11,307 bases of DNA. It comes from a virus. Every line of letters starts with the position of its first letter. Positions within the stretch are counted from its first letter, which is position 1. The position numbers were made by a program, and so were the translations under genes. The DNA is taken from UHGV virus genome UHGV-0356378, one strand, 5' to 3'. Below are positions 313-7,744 of this stretch, piece after piece. Under the pieces are notes generated by a model that ran no database searches, was not told where the DNA came from, and saw nothing but the letters and a program-made list of their open reading frames with translations.

Positions 313-387
313 GTCCTCTTAGTTAAATGGATATAACGAGCCCCTCCTAAGGGCTAATTGCAGGTTCGATTCCTGCAGGGGACACCA
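313..387 (+). tRNA. argW: tRNA-Arg, anticodon CCU (reads AGG)
   Basis: A 75-nt cloverleaf can be drawn: acceptor stem GTCCTCT pairing with AGGGGAC (one G-U), anticodon stem CCCCT/AGGGG around loop CCTAA with CCT in anticodon position, T-arm GCAGG-TTCGATT-CCTGC, discriminator A and encoded CCA. The known attachment site of KplE1-type prophages is argW. Confidence 0.9.
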
Positions 388-388
388 T
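373..388. repeat. attL core: 16-bp CTGCAGGGGACACCAT, the 3' end of argW, repeated exactly at 11167-11182
   Basis: Exact 16/16 identity between 373-388 and 11167-11182, with mismatches immediately on both sides of each copy. The integrase gene lies just inside the left copy and the excisionase gene just inside the right copy. Confidence 0.8.
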
Positions 389-482
389 TTATCAGTTCGC
401 TCCCATCCGTACCAGTCCGCAAAATCCCCTGAATATCAAGCCTTCCGTATATTCACAGTTCGTAATGGTTCGCGTCAGATCG

Positions 483-512
483 TTGACAGCCGCACTCCAT
501 GACGGGTAAAAA
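483..512 (+). promoter_or_regulatory. Candidate sigma-70 promoter for the integrase gene: -35 TTGACA (483-488), 17-18 bp spacer, -10 GTAAAA/TAAAAA (506-512)
   Basis: Perfect -35 hexamer with an A/T-rich -10 at correct spacing, 37 bp upstream of the ATG at 549. In KplE1 the intS promoter is reported to lie within attL. Sequence-pattern evidence only. Confidence 0.35.
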
Positions 513-548
513 GTGGATAAAATAATTTTACCCACCGGATTTTTACCC
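504..548. promoter_or_regulatory. Cluster of three GGGTAAAA motifs (504-511 forward; 526-533 and 541-548 as TTTTACCC, i.e. reverse orientation); candidate integrase arm-type or excisionase binding sites
   Basis: The same 8-mer occurs three times within 45 bp directly upstream of the integrase ATG and twice more in tandem at 11088-11109 beside attR. One given 8-mer is expected about 0.35 times in 22.6 kb of two-strand sequence. Confidence 0.4.
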
Positions 549-1706
549 ATGCTCACCGTTAAGCAGATTGAAGCAGCAAAGCCGAAAGAAAAACCATACC
601 GCCTTCTCGATGGTAATGGCCTGTACCTTTATGTTCCTGTATCCGGGAAAAAGGTATGGCAGCTTCGCTACAAGATTGACGGTAAGGAGAAAATCCTGAC
701 CGTCGGAAAATATCCGCTTATGACTTTGCAGGAAGCAAGGGATAAGGCATGGACTGCGAGGAAAGACATCTCGGTTGGCATCGATCCGGTAAAGGCGAAA
801 AAGGCTTCGTCTAACAACAATTCATTTAGTGCGATTTACAAGGAATGGTACGAGCACAAGAAGCAAGTCTGGTCAGTAGGCTATGCAAATGAACTTGCAA
901 AAATGTTTGATGACGACATTTTACCTATCATCGGCGGCCTTGAAATTCAGTATATTGAGCCGATGCAACTGCTGGAAGTAATCCGCAGATTTGAAGATCG
1001 CGGTGCAATGGAGCGAGCAAATAAAGCCCGCAGAAGATGCGGCGAGGTTTTCCGTTACGCTATTGTCACCGGCAGGGCTAAATATAACCCGGCACCTGAC
1101 CTTGCTGACGCCATGAAGGGATACCGCAAGAAGAACTTCCCGTTTCTTCCTGCAGACCAGATCCCGGCATTCAACAAAGCACTGGCAACATTTTCAGGAA
1201 GTATCGTATCGCTCATTGCAACCAAAGTTTTACGCTACACAGCCCTCAGAACAAAAGAACTTCGTTCCATGCTATGGAAGAACGTCGATTTTGAAAACAG
1301 GATTATCACCATCGACGCCAGTGTGATGAAGGGACGCAAAATTCATGTGGTCCCGATGTCAGACCAGGTGGTTGAACTTCTCACTACGCTAAGCTCAATC
1401 ACCAAACCAGTCTCAGAGTTTGTTTTTGCCGGGCGCAACGATAAGAAGAAGCCAATCTGCGAGAACGCGGTATTGCTTGTGATCAAACAAATCGGCTATG
1501 AGGGTCTGGAAAGCGGTCACGGATTCAGGCATGAATTCAGCACGATTATGAACGAGAACGAATGGCCTGCTGATGCTATTGAAATGCAACTGGCACATGC
1601 CAACGGCGGATCTGTGCGCGGTATTTACAACCATGCGCAGTATCTCGATAAGCGCAGAGAAATGATGCAGTGGTGGGCGGACTGGCTTGATGAAAAGCCT
1701 GAGTGA
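549..1706 (+). CDS. intS: P4-type tyrosine integrase with N-terminal arm-DNA-binding domain, 385 aa from the ATG at 549 (the ORF track's 513 start is a GTG 12 codons upstream)
   Basis: N-terminus LTVKQIEAAKPKEKPYRLLDGNGLYLYVPVSGKKVWQLRYKIDGKEK is the typical P4-integrase arm-binding domain. The C-terminal half has tyrosine-recombinase signatures (ALRTKELRS box I arginine, HGFRHEF box II, catalytic Tyr in RGIYNHAQY). It sits directly inside attL at argW. Length and sequence match what I recall of K-12 IntS. Confidence 0.9.
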   Translation: MLTVKQIEAAKPKEKPYRLLDGNGLYLYVPVSGKKVWQLRYKIDGKEKILTVGKYPLMTLQEARDKAWTARKDISVGIDPVKAKKASSNNNSFSAIYKEWYEHKKQVWSVGYANELAKMFDDDILPIIGGLEIQYIEPMQLLEVIRRFEDRGAMERANKARRRCGEVFRYAIVTGRAKYNPAPDLADAMKGYRKKNFPFLPADQIPAFNKALATFSGSIVSLIATKVLRYTALRTKELRSMLWKNVDFENRIITIDASVMKGRKIHVVPMSDQVVELLTTLSSITKPVSEFVFAGRNDKKKPICENAVLLVIKQIGYEGLESGHGFRHEFSTIMNENEWPADAIEMQLAHANGGSVRGIYNHAQYLDKRREMMQWWADWLDEKPE

Positions 1707-1987: not shown

Positions 1988-3331
1988 ATGAGTGATATAG
2001 ACTTTTTTTATTTTATATTTTCAAATTGGTCAGAGTATTTACTGTACGCTACAGTAACAACTGTTTTATGTTACATGACGGTAAGGAAGCTGGCAGTAGG
2101 AGTGATAGATCCAATACACTTCTATTTTACCTTCACATTTGGAACTTCTTACGCAATAGTATTAATGCTATGGAATTACAACTACATTCCTGATCACTTG
2201 TTCTACATGATTATTCTAAACTGGATTGTATTGGCTTCGTTTATGCACTTGGCATATAGAACACCTAAATTTAGACTACTTGGAACAACTGACAAGGTAT
2301 TTAATACATGCAAAAAAAACTCATCAATAATATTCTATTTGTTGCTAATATTTTATATATCACTAACGGTAATATATATAAAAAGTATATCTTTTGATGC
2401 CTTTGTACAGTCTAGGTTTGAGGCAAACAGAGGTCTTGGTGCTATCGTAAGGATACTTGATGTTGTAAGACTGATGCTCACTGGATATCTTTCTGTCATG
2501 GCAGTAAAGTCCAGAGGGTTGAAAAGAGCATCAATAGCACTTATAGCTATAATTATATCTATAATTGCGTCTTTTGTTTCAGGCGCAAAACTTTCTCTCC
2601 TAGAGCATTTGCTAGTTGCTATAATTGCAATTTATATTTTTACAGGTCGTAAACCAAGGCTAACGATAAAAAGTGCGGTTGTTTTTTTAATTATATCCGT
2701 ATCTCTTGTTGCTTATGTGCTATTCCTAATATCATATAATTCAGCAGCAATAGGGTATACAAAATCAAACTACATGGACGCCCCTGTTGTTGTTGAAATG
2801 TTATTCATGCGGATATTTGCAAATGGAGACGCATACTACTTCTCACTCCCAAATGCAGTTATTGACATGTTGCAAGTAAAAAATGCATTTCTACAACTAT
2901 TCGGATATATAGCCGGGAATGGGATAATGCAAAACATGCTTGGATATGACTACTCAGCTAATGATGTTGGCAGAATGATTTGGAAGGTATGGTATCCTGG
3001 GGATGATGTAGCAAGGGGGCCAACAAGTCACTTTGATCTTGCTGGTTATGTTTACTTTGGCTTTGTCGGCGGTTTATTCATGACTGCATTTTTTGGCTGG
3101 ATACTTGGTCGTGTATGTAAAGCAAAAAACATTAGATTAAGAAGCGATATATTCTACTCTTCTTTCATAGCATCTTTCTATTGCAGGGCATTGGCAATAA
3201 TGCTGTCTCCCCCTATAGGCTTGGCATACATGTTTGATAGCATCGTGTTCTTAATTGCCTTGATGATTTTGTCATCTTTCATTTCTATCTTACTTGGACG
3301 CGGAGTTCGATATAAAGTAGAAGTTAGATGA
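1988..3331 (+). CDS. Polytopic integral membrane protein, 447 aa, roughly 10-11 predicted transmembrane helices with one large loop (about residues 265-335); probable surface-polysaccharide (O-antigen) polymerase or modifying enzyme of the Wzy/EpsG/ligase-like kind; function unresolved
   Basis: Long uninterrupted ORF that is visibly very AT-rich (roughly one-third G+C by eye, against about half in the flanking integrase and ejection genes) and rich in Phe/Tyr/Ile/Leu. It occupies the slot between integrase and tailspike where P22-like phages carry conversion genes (gtrABC, oac, neuO). No gtrA or gtrB is adjacent and no acyltransferase-3 signature is visible. Followed by a strong terminator. 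Confidence 0.75.
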   Translation: MSDIDFFYFIFSNWSEYLLYATVTTVLCYMTVRKLAVGVIDPIHFYFTFTFGTSYAIVLMLWNYNYIPDHLFYMIILNWIVLASFMHLAYRTPKFRLLGTTDKVFNTCKKNSSIIFYLLLIFYISLTVIYIKSISFDAFVQSRFEANRGLGAIVRILDVVRLMLTGYLSVMAVKSRGLKRASIALIAIIISIIASFVSGAKLSLLEHLLVAIIAIYIFTGRKPRLTIKSAVVFLIISVSLVAYVLFLISYNSAAIGYTKSNYMDAPVVVEMLFMRIFANGDAYYFSLPNAVIDMLQVKNAFLQLFGYIAGNGIMQNMLGYDYSANDVGRMIWKVWYPGDDVARGPTSHFDLAGYVYFGFVGGLFMTAFFGWILGRVCKAKNIRLRSDIFYSSFIASFYCRALAIMLSPPIGLAYMFDSIVFLIALMILSSFISILLGRGVRYKVEVR

Positions 3332-3336
3332 ATAAT

Positions 3337-3365
3337 GCCAGCCCCGAGATTATCTCGGGGCTGGC
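3337..3365. terminator. Bidirectional intrinsic terminator between the convergent membrane-protein and tailspike genes: 13-bp perfect stem GCCAGCCCCGAGA / TCTCGGGGCTGGC with loop TTA
   Basis: Perfect inverted repeat lying between the stop at 3329-3331 (plus strand) and the stop at 3369-3371 (minus strand), with A/T-rich flanks on both sides. Confidence 0.7.
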
Positions 3366-3368
3366 ATA

Positions 3369-5582
3369 TTAACTACCGTAGTATGCAATTGATCTAGATA
3401 GTAAATCCCAATCCTTTAAATCACTCGGCCCCTGCACAGCAACATTTCCTTTGCATAAATTAACATTGGCTATGATGATGTTTACTTCTTGTGATTTTGG
3501 AAGCGAAAAGGATAAATAAGCATTCGCATCGCTTGCGGACACAAGACCTTCAAAAGGTATTGCTAATGTGAATTTTTTCAACCCCCATGAACTACCAATA
3601 TCAAACTCACCGAATGAATATACTCTTTGAACGCCTAATGATGAAGAATAGCTCAATATCAAGTTCACGGAAATTTTAGTTTGAACAGATGGCAACCCAT
3701 TTACAGCCATGAAAGATAATGTGACTTCTTTCCCTTGACATTTAAAAACATTTTTATCAATAACAACTCGCAGTGTCTTATTATCGGTATTTGCTATTGG
3801 TATCACCACTCCTATAGTTGTACCATCATGATGAAACTGAGAATCTGAGCTAATTTCATTTCTGTAAATATTACAAACAGCAGCTCCATCAGATGTATAC
3901 TGCCAAAAATCAAATACGCGAGAATCCGATGATGTCGTATTAAATGTAAATGAGTTAGATATTCTAGATAACCTACCACTACCATTTATAACAAGATTAT
4001 CTATTGATATAGATGATGTCCAAGTCTCAACCATAGCGTTAAAATCATGAATCTGAACTCCCGGGAAATTAATTTTTTCATATGAGTTACCATAGCTAAT
4101 TTTATTGGTATTGGTTTTTACAAGCACCTGCGTGTTATCGTATGAAAAAAGATCAAGGCAACCAATATGAGTATTTCTCAGAACAACATTACTTCTTCCA
4201 GGTATCATAAACCTACAATTTGTAGTATATCCCTCAGGCCCAGAAGCCACATTATGAGCATTCCAGTAAAGGCCATTACCACCAATCAATCCACCATCAA
4301 AATAATCATCATCTCGAACAACAGTATCACTTGGTGTTCCACCGTATGTTATCAATGCTTCACACTCTGGGTAAATAGTTTCATGGTATCCATTTATTCT
4401 AGGGTTATTGGCAAAAGATCCTAGTTGATGGGTTATTCTCCATCCTTGAGCAACGCCATCAAAACGATAATCAGCCCCTCCTACGTCAATGCACACACCA
4501 CCTGAACGAGTTCCTTCAATATGAAGATAAACATCAGACCCTATATGCAGTCTACTGTTTCCATAGTCAACGGTTCCATCTTTCATTTTGCCATTGGCGC
4601 TTAGCCAGTTTATTGCCTTTGACTTTGCGTAGGAGTGGCGTATGTTGTCTACGGTAATATCCCAGCAATGACCCCAAAGCTTTATCTGATAGTAATCTTC
4701 AGAGCCATAATCAATAAAACGCAAACCGATAATTCTTGGATTGGTTATGTATTCGTTGAAAACGATCCCATCGGAAAAAAGATCTCCAGTAAAAGTAAAT
4801 AAACCGTTTCCTACAAATCCATAAGTTACATGTAGACGGTGGTCTATGCCGCCTTTATCTCCATTAAAAGTAATTCCGTCCGGACCGAATTTTATTTGGT
4901 TGGAGGTACCATTAAATTCAAGTTTAGTGTTTCCTGCACTGGTTAGGATTACAGGTCTTTTGAACCAAAGCGTAGATGAATGCTTGAACCAGCCAGATGG
5001 GAACTCCAGAGTCACTGGCTTGCCATTATGTTCAGTATTGGCAATGCCATTAACGGCAGAAACCACCTGAAGCAACTGATCATCGATCACCATTCCTGGA
5101 GTATAGTCAATATCAATGTAATCAGATACGTAAACAACATCACCATCTCTGCGCTTAATGCCGCCCAACGCCTTCCCTACTGTTGAGTCTCCATACCCGA
5201 CCATCCAAGCTCCAACAATACCAGAGAGATCAGTTCGCAATCTATCTGGATCATACTTCAGCACATTAGGAGAATAGAACTGCTTCGCACCATACGCATC
5301 ATAAACGGCCATTGAATGGCCTTGCACGGTAACGAACTTGGCAATCTGTCCGTTATATACCGGATATCCAGCAGCGTTAATGATGATTGGTTGCGAAACA
5401 GGAACGTGAGAACCGTCTTCATTCTCCACATAAACCTGAATCTGGTTTTCAGGATTTACCGGGTCAGTGTCAATTTTACCGATATAAATTTTACCATTGG
5501 CAACTGCTTTAAAAGAACGCGCCATAGTGAAGAGTTGCGATGGCATACTTACTACAACATTGGCATTTATCGAATCTGTCAT
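3369..5582 (-). CDS. P22-like tailspike, 737 aa: conserved N-terminal head-binding domain (about aa 1-113, nt 5244-5582) fused to a divergent receptor-binding/probable polysaccharide depolymerase domain
   Basis: The N-terminus [98 protein letters not shown]...VLKYDPD is near-collinear with the P22 gp9 head-binding domain as I recall it. Beyond about residue 115 I see no similarity to the P22 receptor domain. A GGAG ribosome-binding site precedes the ATG. The downstream two-thirds is more AT-rich than the 5' end. Confidence 0.9.
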
Positions 5583-5746: not shown

Positions 5747-7744
5747 CTATTCTGACAACGCATCAGACTTAGCCCCCTGCGTCAGAGCGTTAATTGCCTT
5801 TTGTGCCTGCTGCATTGCTTTCTCAAAGGCTGTTGATCCGCGTGGGGTGTTTGCCATTCGGAGCATTGCATTTCTGAATGTTTCGCTCTCATAGGCGCGA
5901 GTAAGAAGTCCGTAGCTTACTGCTGCGCCAGTTGTCGCCGGGTTCATTGCCGTCCCATACCCGATAATGAACGGGATGGTTTGCTGCCCTGTTGGTGTTG
6001 TTACTGCCGCTTTTGCTGCCTGCTGAGTGGACTGAAGGTAATTTTTCAATCCTTTCAGATAAGCAGCGTCCTGCCCCTTAAATGTGATGCCAGTCTGGTT
6101 TTGCAGGGTGTTAAGCTGTCGAAGGAACTGGTCAGGGGAACCACCTGATTTCTCCATCGCCTTTCCAATGATGCCATTGCGCATTTGCGCCCTGCCAATA
6201 CGACCAACTGAGTTATACAGCGTCTTAATTTCCGATTTGTTCTTGCTGAATAGCATGTTGTTGACAACTTCCGGCGTCAGGTCGCCTTTCATGAGAACAT
6301 TCTTCAGCCTGGTATTCTTTAGTTTCGCCGCTTCGTCAGCGTAGACGGCATTGGCCTGCTGATATTTACGGAGAGTATCGTTGCCAAGATTCTGACCAAT
6401 GGCACCATTGATATCGTCTGTCATTGCCTTGTAAACGCGCTGAATGGCAGCATCGGAACGGTTTGGTAACACTGGTCGTTCCCCCTTCACGTCCATTCTG
6501 AACTGGCTGCGCAGATCGCTTAATTGCTTCAAATCCAGATTTACCGGACCATCAGGGCCAGCATTGCGAACAAGCTCATCACGATAGGACTGAAGTTTTG
6601 AAATTGTCTCGTTATCAGCAACCTTACCAAGCTTCTGCAGGTTAGATATTTCTGTATCAATCTGCTGAATTGCTCTTGCAGGCTGAATGTTTATTCCCGC
6701 CATAGCATTCTGAACCTGCTCCAGTCGATTTCCTGCAGCGCGACGAATTCCTGATGTTTTCGCTTTAAGGCTGTCAATAACAACCGCTGGATCATACTCA
6801 CCGAATTTATCAGCAAATCTCTGCACCAACTGGCTTCTCGCTTCCTGTTGCGTTGCTCTCATTCCGCTTGTGCCAGCCAGGGGGATATTTTCTGCTGTCG
6901 TTTGCGCCATTTTTCCGACGCGGGAAGTGGGTTGTAACAGGTCTGTGGTGTGCAGAGGAACACCTTCACGCTCTGCAAATCTGATAGCCTGCTGCGCTTC
7001 TGGCGCAATAGCACCACGAACGCCACGATAAGCAGCACCTAATCCACGCCCGGCAGCGTTAATAGCACCGCCAGCAAGTACACCAACGCCTAAATCGGTG
7101 GCGAGTGCTTCCGCATCATCTTTCGCACTATTTGCAGCAAGTGATCCAACTGCGTTTTCTGCTAGAAGGCGAGTTGCCCCCTGAGCAATTCGACCAGCAA
7201 GTGTTGGTGCCTGTACCGCCGCTCTCTCAACGCCAGCAGGAGTGAGGTAAGGCAATGCTTCAGCAAATACCTTTCCCTCTGTCGTTTGTGGAGTCAGCGC
7301 ACCTTGCTGAAGGCCAAAGTCCTGCTCTAATCCCTGCGTTGTTACTCGTGGTGCTGGTTGATATGTACCATCGCCAATACCGAGTTTACCGCCAGCCCAA
7401 GCCGCCGCGCTTGTTACAGCATCGGCAACTGATGCAGGTATGTTTGCCACGTTCACGCCGGCCTGCACCAGTCCGCGACCAGTCTCTTTTACTGCTTCAC
7501 CAAGATCAGACATAAATCCACTTTGCTGTGGTTGTTGCTGTGCTACTGGTTGTTGTGTCTCCACTGGCTGCACAGATGGCAATGGATAGGCAGCATAGAA
7601 AGCTTGCTTAGCCTGCTCTGCATTTTCTCCGGCTTGCGGGGCAACGACTTCATTGAAGTATTGCTCCTGAGCCTGCGCTTTTTGTTCTGGTGCTAACGCC
7701 TGATACTGTGGAGAGGCGATAACATCTTTCCATGCTTTAGCCAT
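5747..7744 (-). CDS. Ejection (DNA-transfer) protein of the P22 gp16 type, 665 aa
   Basis: Third gene of a gp7-gp20-gp16 set immediately upstream of the tailspike, as in P22-like late operons. Its start overlaps the stop of the upstream gene (TAATG). Ala/Gln-rich low-complexity segments are typical of these proteins. Assignment by synteny and size; P22 gp16 is about 609 aa. Confidence 0.8.
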   Translation of the reverse strand: MAKAWKDVIASPQYQALAPEQKAQAQEQYFNEVVAPQAGENAEQAKQAFYAAYPLPSVQPVETQQPVAQQQPQQSGFMSDLGEAVKETGRGLVQAGVNVANIPASVADAVTSAAAWAGGKLGIGDGTYQPAPRVTTQGLEQDFGLQQGALTPQTTEGKVFAEALPYLTPAGVERAAVQAPTLAGRIAQGATRLLAENAVGSLAANSAKDDAEALATDLGVGVLAGGAINAAGRGLGAAYRGVRGAIAPEAQQAIRFAEREGVPLHTTDLLQPTSRVGKMAQTTAENIPLAGTSGMRATQQEARSQLVQRFADKFGEYDPAVVIDSLKAKTSGIRRAAGNRLEQVQNAMAGINIQPARAIQQIDTEISNLQKLGKVADNETISKLQSYRDELVRNAGPDGPVNLDLKQLSDLRSQFRMDVKGERPVLPNRSDAAIQRVYKAMTDDINGAIGQNLGNDTLRKYQQANAVYADEAAKLKNTRLKNVLMKGDLTPEVVNNMLFSKNKSEIKTLYNSVGRIGRAQMRNGIIGKAMEKSGGSPDQFLRQLNTLQNQTGITFKGQDAAYLKGLKNYLQSTQQAAKAAVTTPTGQQTIPFIIGYGTAMNPATTGAAVSYGLLTRAYESETFRNAMLRMANTPRGSTAFEKAMQQAQKAINALTQGAKSDALSE

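What the first reader, a model, noticed from the sequence alone, without database searches (positions are those of the whole stretch)
3369..5582. Mosaic tailspike: P22-type head-binding domain fused to an unrecognised receptor-binding domain
The first ~113 residues are near-collinear with the P22 gp9 head-binding domain, but the remaining ~620 residues bear no resemblance that I can recognise to the P22 endorhamnosidase domain. The nucleotide composition also drops in G+C after the head-binding segment (5' end of the gene, 5244-5582). This is the classic module swap that retargets P22-like phages to new O-antigens or capsules. The receptor domain (nt 3369-5243) probably encodes a polysaccharide depolymerase whose substrate may be the structure made or altered by the adjacent membrane protein.
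Basis: partly seen in the sequence, partly recalled or inferred. Interest (0 to 1): 0.6.

Follow-up and report, generated by a model that had tools for sequence, protein, structure and literature searches.

The report
P22-type tailspike with new receptor domain
This gene is a phage tailspike whose common P22-type attachment domain is joined to a rare, uncharacterised beta-helix receptor domain; the gene sits next to a phage-borne O-antigen polymerase, and that polymerase, which always accompanies it, is found only in E. coli strains with the O5 surface sugar, so it is an ordinary kind of module swap with an unstudied specificity.

Summary
ORF 3369-5582 (-), 737 aa, has a P22 head-binding domain at aa 4-114 (PF09008, E 9e-64). 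DNA homology to 1118 of 5426 complete E. coli genomes stops exactly at window 5244, codon D113 of YDPD.

The same receptor domain is fused to P22, T7, P2 and TSP1/gp66 N-terminal adaptors in seven genera, so it is a portable module.

It usually travels with a convergent Wzy-like polymerase gene (window 1988-3331). All 8 E. coli genomes with this wzy carry the O5 O-antigen cluster. In 6 of them the cluster's own wzy is inactivated, by three independent mutations.

The most likely function is an O5 O-antigen glycosidase, paired with a seroconverting polymerase. Activity and substrate are untested.

Here the gene lies in a deleted, defective prophage at argW. Verdict: new member of a known kind, moderate interest.

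The parts
3369..5582 (-). Tailspike CDS, 737 aa plus stop
   Evidence: ORF list. Annotated 'phage head-binding domain-containing protein' in the identical genome NZ_CP069542.
5244..5582 (-). P22-type head-binding (particle-binding) module, aa 1-113, ending in YDPD
   Evidence: PF09008 E 8.9e-64. PDB hits to Sf6 and P22 N-terminal domains. DNA homology to 1118 E. coli genomes ends at 5244.
5016..5243 (-). Linker/neck and N-terminal cap of the receptor domain, aa 114-189. Start of the portable module (conserved GDVVY..DY motif).
   Evidence: Family alignment A1/A2. Helices at model residues 9-64.
4011..5015 (-). Right-handed beta-helix, aa ~190-524, presumed catalytic and substrate-binding body. 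Conserved polar residues: N276, W307-D308, N325, D339, S343-R344, Y399/E401, N441/H443/N444.
3450..4010 (-). C-terminal beta-sandwich, aa ~525-711, CBM4/9/11/22-like
   Evidence: Stand-alone relatives match profile positions 409-624, and 5 of 12 carry PF02018 CBM_4_9. Foldseek hits to CBM11/4/22/16.
3372..3449 (-). C-terminal tail, aa 712-737 (..[15 protein letters not shown]). Conserved in the family, low model confidence.
   Evidence: Alignment A1. pLDDT about 30.
3335..3367 (.). Perfect 15-bp hairpin between the convergent stop codons of wzy and the tailspike. Candidate bidirectional terminator.
   Evidence: Sequence. Folding energy -31.3 kcal/mol, z -8 against shuffles.
1988..3331 (+). Prophage-encoded Wzy-like O-antigen polymerase, 447 aa, partner of the receptor domain
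   Evidence: TIGR04370 45.8 bits against a cut-off of 40. phrog_14022. Annotated O-antigen polymerase. Co-occurs with receptor-domain homologues. Found only in O5 genomes.
5747..9873 (-). P22-type ejection protein genes gp16 (5747-7744), gp20 (7744-9171) and gp7 (9181-9873), immediately upstream of the tailspike
   Evidence: PF16928 and PF25688. PF26808.
313..1706 (+). tRNA-Arg(CCT) argW (313-387) and prophage integrase intS (513-1706): the integration end of the prophage
   Evidence: ARAGORN. Pfam integrase domains. Annotation.

Best explanation
The gene encodes the tailspike of a P22-like temperate phage that integrates at argW.

Architecture:
- aa 1-113 dock the spike on the phage tail. This module is shared with HK620, Sf6, CUS-3 and P22.
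- aa 114-737 are a portable receptor-binding module: a right-handed beta-helix followed by a CBM-like beta-sandwich. It belongs to a small, uncharacterised family distantly related to the PF12708 'pectate-lyase-3' depolymerases.

Most likely mechanism (inferred):
- The spike is presumably trimeric and binds the host O-antigen, in E. coli the O5 polysaccharide.
- It cleaves the O-antigen hydrolytically so that the virion reaches the outer membrane.
- The convergent neighbour is a phage Wzy polymerase. After lysogeny it re-polymerises O5 repeat units with a different inter-unit linkage, which removes the receptor for further phages of this type.

In this window the prophage has lost about 30 kb, including the head, replication and lysis genes. 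The tailspike is therefore an intact but functionless relic, while wzy is the part that is kept.

What is shown: domain architecture, junction, fold class, portability, Wzy pairing and O5 association.
What is inferred: trimer state, enzymatic activity, hydrolase chemistry, substrate and the direction of seroconversion.
For: Domain and junction:
- PF09008 hit and N-terminal PDB hits.
- DNA homology ends at YDPD.

Fold:
- AF2 model with pLDDT 72.9.
- Foldseek best hit CBA120 TSP4; the C-terminal part matches CBM jelly rolls.
- BFVD rank 2 is the St11Ph5 spike, 23% identical over aa 118-505. St11Ph5 was isolated on an O5ab host (PMC5764931).

Remote homology:
- 28 of 55 distant relatives carry PF12708; 5 of 12 C-terminal relatives carry CBM_4_9.

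Portability:
- The same module sits on PF09008, PF18668, PF03906 and PF12571 N-termini.

Virion context:
- gp7-gp20-gp16-tailspike-wzy-int order in the window.
- A fuller prophage with coat, gp4, gp10, gp26 and gp14 carries the identical tailspike.

Wzy pairing:
-.
- A more divergent Wzy (49% identity) goes with an unrelated receptor domain on the same head-binding domain.

O5 link:
- The wzy occurs in 8 of 5426 genomes, and all 8 are among the 35 genomes with the O5 wzx/wzy.
- The cluster wzy is inactivated in 6 of the 8, by three different mutations.
- O5ab and O5ac share the same tetrasaccharide and differ only in the inter-unit linkage (PMC7496230, PMC9912281).

Decay of the tailspike but not of wzy:
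- Tailspike intact in 3 genomes, IS1-truncated in 3, deleted in 2; wzy intact in all 8.
Against: - No enzymatic or binding data exist for any family member.
- The module itself does not reach PF12708 or any CAZy-type profile.
- Catalytic residues cannot be assigned. Only conserved D308, D339, E401 and H443 are known.
- The model is of moderate confidence and monomeric.
- The O5 association may partly reflect shared ancestry of the carrier strains rather than independent lysogenisations.
- In Hafnia and Citrobacter the neighbour is an acyltransferase, not a Wzy.
- One E. coli prophage has an identical Wzy but a receptor domain that differs by 25-45% at the DNA level over aa ~240-710, so the pairing is not one-to-one.
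- St11Ph5 was reported to infect independently of O-antigen (PMC6393563).
Confidence: 0.7

Rival explanations
1. The beta-helix is a non-catalytic adhesin. It binds the O-antigen or another surface glycan without cleaving it, as the beta-helical adhesin PfbA does. Host-range specificity would come from binding alone.
For: - No catalytic dyad can be assigned, and no glycosidase or lyase profile is reached.
Against: - Characterised P22-family tailspikes that I know of (P22, Sf6, HK620, CUS-3) are enzymes (established knowledge).
- Acidic and histidine residues (D308, D339, E401, H443) are conserved even in relatives at about 20% identity. This is typical of an active site rather than a variable binding surface.
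- The central helix is 80-97% identical across genera while the distal parts vary.
Confidence: 0.15
2. The substrate is not the O5 O-antigen but another exopolysaccharide: a group 1/4 capsule, colanic acid, or a structure shared by many Enterobacterales such as ECA. The O5 association would then be a by-product of clonal descent.
For: - The family occurs at 63-84% identity in seven genera with a very conserved core, which could point to a common substrate.
- The O5 carriers were not shown to be phylogenetically independent.
Against: - 8 of 8 carriers lie within the 35 O5 genomes out of 5426.
- The carriers show several different cluster-wzy haplotypes and different prophage decay patterns.
- The partner gene is an O-unit polymerase, and receptor domain and Wzy change together.
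- The position next to O-antigen modification genes is the classic one for O-antigen-specific spikes.
Confidence: 0.12
3. The spike recognises the converted O-antigen made by the adjacent phage Wzy, rather than the unconverted one. This would resemble epsilon34, which needs epsilon15-converted cells. Spike and polymerase would then be matched as maker and user of the same receptor.
For: - Tight co-inheritance of receptor domain and Wzy across genera and phage types.
Against: - A temperate phage that creates its own receptor on lysogens would lose progeny by adsorption to immune cells.
- Known phage Wzy systems (epsilon15, D3) abolish the receptor (established knowledge).
- An identical Wzy is paired with two different distal receptor-domain alleles.
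Confidence: 0.15

Closest known systems
Tailspikes of P22-like phages HK620, Sf6, CUS-3 and P22 (gp9 family)
   Same: - N-terminal head-binding domain: 89% identity to HK620 over aa 1-130, 76% to Sf6; PDB 7sg7, 2xc1.
- YDPD junction.
- Gene order gp7-gp20-gp16-tailspike-conversion gene-int.
   Different: - No sequence similarity beyond about aa 144.
- Not the endorhamnosidase, endo-N-acetylglucosaminidase or endosialidase modules.
- Ends in a CBM-like jelly roll.
- The conversion gene next to it is a Wzy, not gtrABC or oac.
Escherichia phage St11Ph5 tail spike (analogue of G7C gp63.1; MG208881, ATS92539)
   Same: - Closest protein from an isolated phage: 23% identity over aa 118-505, E 4e-14; hhalign probability 96%; BFVD rank 2 over the full length.
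- Its isolation host produces the O5ab O-antigen (PMC5764931).
   Different: - Very distant in sequence.
- Has a G7C-type N-terminus.
- Function only predicted ('lyase') and never assayed.
- Infection was reported to be independent of O-antigen (PMC6393563).
PF12708 (Pect-lyase_RHGA_epim / pectate lyase 3) phage depolymerases, e.g. CBA120 TSP4 (5w6h) and Acinetobacter APK14 gp49 (8oq1)
   Same: - Right-handed beta-helix fold.
- 28 of 55 distant sequence relatives are PF12708 members.
- The N-terminal cap motif aligns with the DFGA..DG.TD..A motif of the family.
   Different: - The window protein and its 20 close relatives do not reach the Pfam model at all.
- Catalytic residues are not alignable to a characterised member.
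Seroconversion by phage-encoded O-antigen polymerases: Salmonella phage epsilon15 and Pseudomonas phage D3 (Newton et al. 2001, cited in PMC7685785)
   Same: - A temperate phage carries a Wzy next to or near its O-antigen-specific spike.
- The host O-unit is expected to be re-polymerised with a new linkage.
- The host's own polymerase becomes dispensable (cluster wzy inactivated in 6 of 8 carriers).
   Different: - No inhibitor of the host polymerase (Iap-like peptide) was identified here.
- The linkage change is inferred, not measured.
- The phage is P22-like, not epsilon15- or D3-like.

Membership tests
P22-like tailspike (gp9-type particle-binding domain) | N-terminal head-binding domain matching PF09008 above the gathering score | tested here: met
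   213 bits against a cut-off of 24, aa 4-114. Sf6 and P22 PDB chains match aa 1-144 and 5-116.
P22-like tailspike (gp9-type particle-binding domain) | Gene lies in the P22-type virion module, after gp7/gp20/gp16 and before the conversion and integrase genes | tested here: met
   Fuller prophages with coat, gp4, gp10, gp26 and gp14 upstream.
P22-like tailspike (gp9-type particle-binding domain) | Module junction at the conserved YDPD linker | tested here: met
   DNA homology to 1118 genomes ends at window 5244, which is D113.
P22-like tailspike (gp9-type particle-binding domain) | Homotrimer | not testable with these tools
   Only a monomer was modelled.
P22 gp9 endorhamnosidase receptor domain | Sequence homology to P22 gp9 residues ~120-666 | tested here: not met
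   P22 chains 2xc1 and 8tvr align only to aa 2-116. A profile of the C-terminal part finds no PDB sequence.
PF12708 pectate-lyase-3-like phage depolymerases | Match to the PF12708 profile | tested here: not met
   No hit at E <= 10 for any of 20 family members.
PF12708 pectate-lyase-3-like phage depolymerases | Transitive (remote) homology to members | tested here: met
   A family profile retrieves 129 proteins. 28 of the 55 scanned carry PF12708, best E 8.5e-17.
PF12708 pectate-lyase-3-like phage depolymerases | Right-handed parallel beta-helix fold | tested here: met
PF12708 pectate-lyase-3-like phage depolymerases | Identifiable catalytic acid/base residues and polysaccharide-cleaving activity | tested here: inconclusive
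   D308, D339, E401 and H443 are conserved in distant relatives, but there is no residue-level superposition and no assay.
CBM4/9-like carbohydrate-binding jelly roll (C-terminal domain) | Beta-sandwich fold and homology to CBM_4_9 members | tested here: met
   There is no direct Pfam hit. Stand-alone relatives of aa ~525-737 carry PF02018 in 5 of 12 cases. Foldseek hits to CBM11/4/22/16, E 3e-6 to 1e-4.
Phage Wzy seroconversion system (epsilon15/D3 type) | Phage-encoded O-unit polymerase adjacent to the receptor-binding protein | tested here: met
   TIGR04370 45.8 bits against a cut-off of 40. Convergent partner in E. coli, Morganella, Xenorhabdus, Cedecea and Enterobacter.
Phage Wzy seroconversion system (epsilon15/D3 type) | Restricted to hosts with one O-antigen type | tested here: met
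   8 of 8 carriers are among the 35 O5 genomes out of 5426. Phylogenetic independence was not resolved.
Phage Wzy seroconversion system (epsilon15/D3 type) | Inhibitor of the host polymerase | tested here: inconclusive
   Only unconvincing 20-31 aa ORFs lie between intS and wzy. No homology test is possible for such peptides.
Phage Wzy seroconversion system (epsilon15/D3 type) | Altered inter-unit linkage in lysogens | not testable with these tools
   Needs NMR or serology. O5ab and O5ac differ in exactly this way (PMC7496230).

The most novel reading that the evidence does not exclude
The receptor domain and the convergent Wzy form a two-gene 'cut the receptor / rebuild it differently' cassette. 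The cassette moves as a unit between P22-like, T7-like and other prophages of at least five genera.

In E. coli it would be the unrecognised genetic basis of the O5ab/O5ac split, meaning the same tetrasaccharide joined by a different inter-unit linkage. The spike would be the founding member of a new glycoside-hydrolase family specific for the Qui3NAc/Ribf-containing O5 polymer.
Probability: 0.3. Interest if true: 0.55.

Novelty: new member of a known kind. Interest (0 to 1): 0.4.

Why it matters
Tailspike receptor modules decide which serotypes a phage, or an engineered phage or enzyme, can attack. This one belongs to a family with no characterised member, no Pfam model and no solved structure. 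It appears tied to E. coli O5, a clinically relevant STEC and UPEC serogroup (PMC4309606 lists O5 among STEC serogroups). O5 strains were reported as hard to find phages for (PMC5764931).

The pairing with a phage Wzy gives a testable genetic explanation for the O5ab/O5ac subtypes. It also explains why O-genotyping finds broken wzy genes in strains that still make O-antigen. None of this changes the general picture: modular exchange at the YDPD junction of P22-like tailspikes is textbook.

Tried and rejected
- Direct family assignment of aa 116-737 failed with Pfam (also at E <= 10), PHROGs, NCBIfam, and PDB sequence searches with a single sequence and with a profile.
- tblastn against 50,697 phage records gave only weak hits: St11Ph5, Aeromonas TSW001 and a Lactobacillus phage.
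- Names of the nearest distant relatives were uninformative ('glycosyl hydrolase family 28-related' in Cohnella; otherwise unnamed).
- An esterase or deacetylase spike of the G7C gp63.1 type was considered and rejected, because the fold is a beta-helix.
- A lyase mechanism was considered and judged unlikely if O5 is the substrate. As far as I recall, the O5 unit (Qui3NAc, Ribf, Gal, GalNAc) has no uronic acid. This is partly supported by PMC9912281 and by the gene content of the cluster.
- The search for an Iap-like inhibitor ORF between intS and wzy was inconclusive.
- The promoter and terminator consensus scan gave nothing above shuffled expectation except the hairpin, which was found by eye.
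- The Wzy has no match in the phage genome collection.
- The alternative receptor-domain allele (P0004) is absent from complete E. coli genomes, so its host serotype could not be determined.
Full report
**1. The observation**

The window holds an ORF at 3369..5582 on the minus strand, 737 aa. Pfam places a P22 head-binding domain (PF09008) at aa 4-114, with E 8.9e-64 and 213 bits against a cut-off of 24. Solved structures that match by sequence are the N-terminal domains of the Sf6 and P22 tailspikes, and no match goes beyond aa 144.

Against 50,697 phage records, 186 records match, but none beyond about aa 144: HK620 89% over aa 1-130, CUS-3 and Sf6 similar. At the DNA level, window 5244-5597 matches 1118 of 5426 complete E. 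coli genomes at 84-95% identity. Almost all of these matches stop at 5244-5251, which is codon D113 of the YDPD motif.

The remaining 622 residues have no Pfam hit even at E <= 10, no PHROG, no NCBIfam and no PDB sequence match with a family profile.

The G+C claim holds only weakly. The head-binding segment is 42.0% and the rest 38.6%, with a marked drop (30-37%) only after about aa 450. The neighbouring ejection genes are 50-52% and the wzy gene 35.4%.

**2. Where the window comes from**

The window is 100% identical to E. coli FDAARGOS_1248 (NZ_CP069542). It lies between yfdC/argW and dsdC, and tRNA-Arg(CCT) is at 313-387. The gene order is:
- intS (513-1706)
- a Wzy-like polymerase (1988-3331, +)
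- the tailspike (-)
- gp16, gp20 and gp7 (-)
- a truncated gp14 fragment
- an ASCH gene
- torI

No head, replication or lysis genes remain, so this is a deletion remnant of a P22-like prophage. Draft genomes GCA_905397475.1 and GCA_017162495.1 carry the identical tailspike behind coat, gp4, gp10, gp26, gp14, gp7, gp20 and gp16. The phage therefore exists, or recently existed, in fuller form.

Between the convergent stop codons of wzy and the tailspike lies a perfect 15-bp hairpin at 3335-3367 (-31.3 kcal/mol, z -8). It is a candidate bidirectional terminator.

**3. What the receptor part is**

*Rarity.* In 5.8 billion clustered proteins only 24 clusters match aa 116-737. An exhaustive profile search of 1.84 billion representatives gives 129 hits at E <= 1e-3, and only 8 at E <= 1e-30. 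IMG/VR holds 3 loci.

*Portability.* The close family (63-84% identity) occurs in E. coli, Cedecea, Hafnia, Enterobacter, Citrobacter, Xenorhabdus and Morganella. The same module is fused to four different N-terminal adaptors:
- PF09008 (P22 type)
- PF18668 (TSP1/gp66 type)
- PF03906 (T7 tail-fibre type)
- PF12571 (P2-type tail-collar fibre)

This shows directly that aa ~114-737 is a portable module.

*Fold.* An AlphaFold2 model built on a 20-sequence alignment has pLDDT 72.9 and pTM 0.61. It shows three parts:
- a beta-helix, roughly aa 190-524
- a beta-sandwich, roughly aa 525-711
- a low-confidence terminal helix

*Remote homology.* Of 55 distant sequence relatives, 28 carry PF12708. Of 12 relatives of the C-terminal part alone, 5 carry CBM_4_9.

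*Conserved residues.* The polar residues conserved across the distant relatives are N276, W307-D308, N325, D339, S343-R344, Y399/E401 and N441/H443/N444. These are candidates for an active site, but I could not place them in three dimensions.

*Nearest isolated phage.* The closest protein from an isolated phage is the spike of St11Ph5: 23% identity over aa 118-505, hhalign probability 96%, BFVD rank 2. Its activity has never been assayed (PMC6393563).

**4. Mosaicism inside the module**

Across the family, aa 320-400 are 80-97% identical, while aa 440-560 fall to 30-60%.

One E. coli prophage (P0004, GCA_041090955.1) is almost 100% identical in DNA to the window from about 5300 to 4870, and from about 3450 through wzy and intS. 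Between those points (aa ~240-710) it is only 55-76% identical. So there is a second level of exchange that replaces only the distal part of the helix and the sandwich. That allele is absent from complete E. coli genomes.

**5. The neighbour and the likely substrate**

The adjacent 447-aa membrane protein reaches the oligosaccharide-repeat-unit-polymerase model TIGR04370 (45.8 bits, cut-off 40) and is annotated O-antigen polymerase. Its family is as small as the receptor-domain family, at 21 clusters. It occurs on the same contigs as receptor-domain homologues in Cedecea (two strains), Xenorhabdus bovienii and Morganella morganii.

In each of the following cases the Wzy gene is convergent with, and immediately downstream of, the spike or fibre gene:
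- E. coli, both receptor-domain alleles
- Morganella (Wzy 51% identical)
- Xenorhabdus (58%)
- a Cedecea-type T7-like element (69%)
- a second IMG/VR contig (79% over the part present)
- Enterobacter asburiae (82%)

In Hafnia and Citrobacter the neighbour is an Acyl_transf_3 gene, which is another O-antigen modifier. A more distant E. coli Wzy (49%) at argW is paired with a P22-type spike that has the same head-binding domain but an unrelated receptor domain. Receptor domain and polymerase thus tend to change together.

*The O5 association.*
- Among 5426 complete E. coli genomes the prophage wzy occurs in 8.
- All 8 are among the 35 genomes that carry the O5 wzx/wzy genes.
- FDAARGOS_1248 has the O5 cluster between galF and gnd.

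*State of the cluster's own wzy*:
- delG468 in FDAARGOS_1248
- delT560 in ZF34 and ZF31
- T452A nonsense mutation in S163-2, TUM9754 and DETEC-P61
- intact in B25FEP and ws5-3

Of ten O5 genomes without the prophage wzy that I checked, nine have an intact cluster wzy. One (19SZHZ886Rt) shares the T452A allele. Three independent inactivations in carriers argue that the prophage Wzy polymerises O5 units in place of the chromosomal enzyme.

The O5ab and O5ac antigens consist of the same tetrasaccharide joined through different linkages (PMC7496230). In O5ac the linkage is GalNAc-alpha-(1->2)-Qui3NAc (PMC9912281). A second Wzy would produce exactly this kind of difference. I found no paper that gives the genetic basis, but my literature access is partial.

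*Retention.* The tailspike itself is not kept under comparable retention. It is intact in 3 carriers, IS1-truncated in 3 and deleted in 2, while wzy is intact in all 8.

**6. Mechanism proposed**

Shown:
- a P22-type docking domain
- a portable beta-helix plus CBM-like receptor module
- a convergent phage Wzy
- restriction of the accompanying wzy, and so of the tailspike that always sits beside it, to O5 hosts

Inferred:
- The spike is trimeric and binds and hydrolyses the O5 O-antigen during adsorption.
- After lysogeny the phage Wzy re-polymerises the same units with another linkage and so removes the receptor. This is the epsilon15/D3 paradigm.

Hydrolysis is preferred to beta-elimination because the O5 unit, as far as I recall, contains no uronic acid. 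This rests on the literature and on the gene content of the cluster, not on an assay.

Rivals:
- a non-catalytic adhesin
- a non-O-antigen substrate
- a spike that needs the converted antigen

Each is addressed by the LPS-digestion experiment described under next steps.

**7. Comparison and novelty**

Module exchange at the YDPD junction of P22-like tailspikes is well established. A new receptor module on this scaffold is a new member of a known kind.

What is not in the databases I searched:
- any characterised member of this receptor-domain family
- any Pfam model for it
- the observation that the family travels with a specific Wzy family
- its restriction to E. coli O5

**8. Verdict**

Interest is 0.4: ordinary in kind, but an unstudied specificity with a concrete, testable link to O5 subtype variation.

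Noticed in passing
window 1988-3331 (+); O5 cluster in L005 7001-8316 (NZ_CP069542 2287000-2288315): The prophage Wzy-like polymerase occurs in 8 of 5426 complete E. coli genomes, and all 8 carry the O5 O-antigen cluster. In 6 of the 8 the cluster's own wzy is broken by three independent mutations: delG468, delT560 and a T452A nonsense mutation. It is intact in 9 of 10 O5 genomes without the prophage gene. This suggests that the prophage Wzy has taken over polymerisation, and it may underlie the O5ab/O5ac linkage difference.
   Followed up: partly
window 9874-11307; L001 3151-4368: The prophage is a deletion remnant. A 108-nt fragment of the gp14 (DUF2824) gene abuts an ASCH-domain gene (9949-10269) and torI (10893-11093). 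All head, lysis and replication genes are missing. Fuller versions with the identical tailspike exist in GCA_905397475.1 and GCA_017162495.1.
   Followed up: partly
L002 7288-8824 (NZ_CP058709); L013 10345-11174 (NZ_CP047461): In three genomes (S163-2, TUM9754, DETEC-P61) an IS1 element truncates the tailspike, leaving only the last ~274 codons, annotated 'hypothetical protein'. In ZF34 and ZF31 IS1 has removed all but about 40 nt of it. In every case wzy and intS are untouched.
   Followed up: yes
window ~3450-4870 compared with L019 8700-10150: A second E. coli prophage has identical flanks (first 240 codons of the tailspike, wzy, intS) but only 55-76% DNA identity over aa ~240-710. This is an internal allele replacement within the receptor domain, next to an identical Wzy.
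   Followed up: partly
window 3335-3367: A perfect 15-bp inverted repeat with a 3-nt loop lies between the convergent stop codons of wzy and the tailspike (-31.3 kcal/mol, z -8). It was not picked up by the terminator consensus scan because it lacks a T-run.
   Followed up: yes
L041 7001-10422 (E. coli CP148541): Another argW P22-like prophage in E. coli carries a 49%-identical Wzy next to a 679-aa tailspike. That tailspike has the same head-binding domain but an unrelated PF12708-type receptor domain. Alternative [receptor domain + Wzy] cassettes therefore exist at the same locus.
   Followed up: partly
L032 (NZ_CP080080, strain 19SZHZ886Rt): This O5 strain shares the T452A nonsense allele of the cluster wzy but lacks the prophage wzy, and no GT2 gene is listed downstream. 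It may be a semi-rough descendant that lost the island.
   Followed up: no
window 5747-7744 (-): The gp16 homologue gave no Pfam hit in my scan, but it is listed with PF26808 (Phage_P22_gp16) in the precomputed tables, and RefSeq calls it a lytic transglycosylase domain protein. Its allele differs strongly between otherwise near-identical prophages.
   Followed up: no
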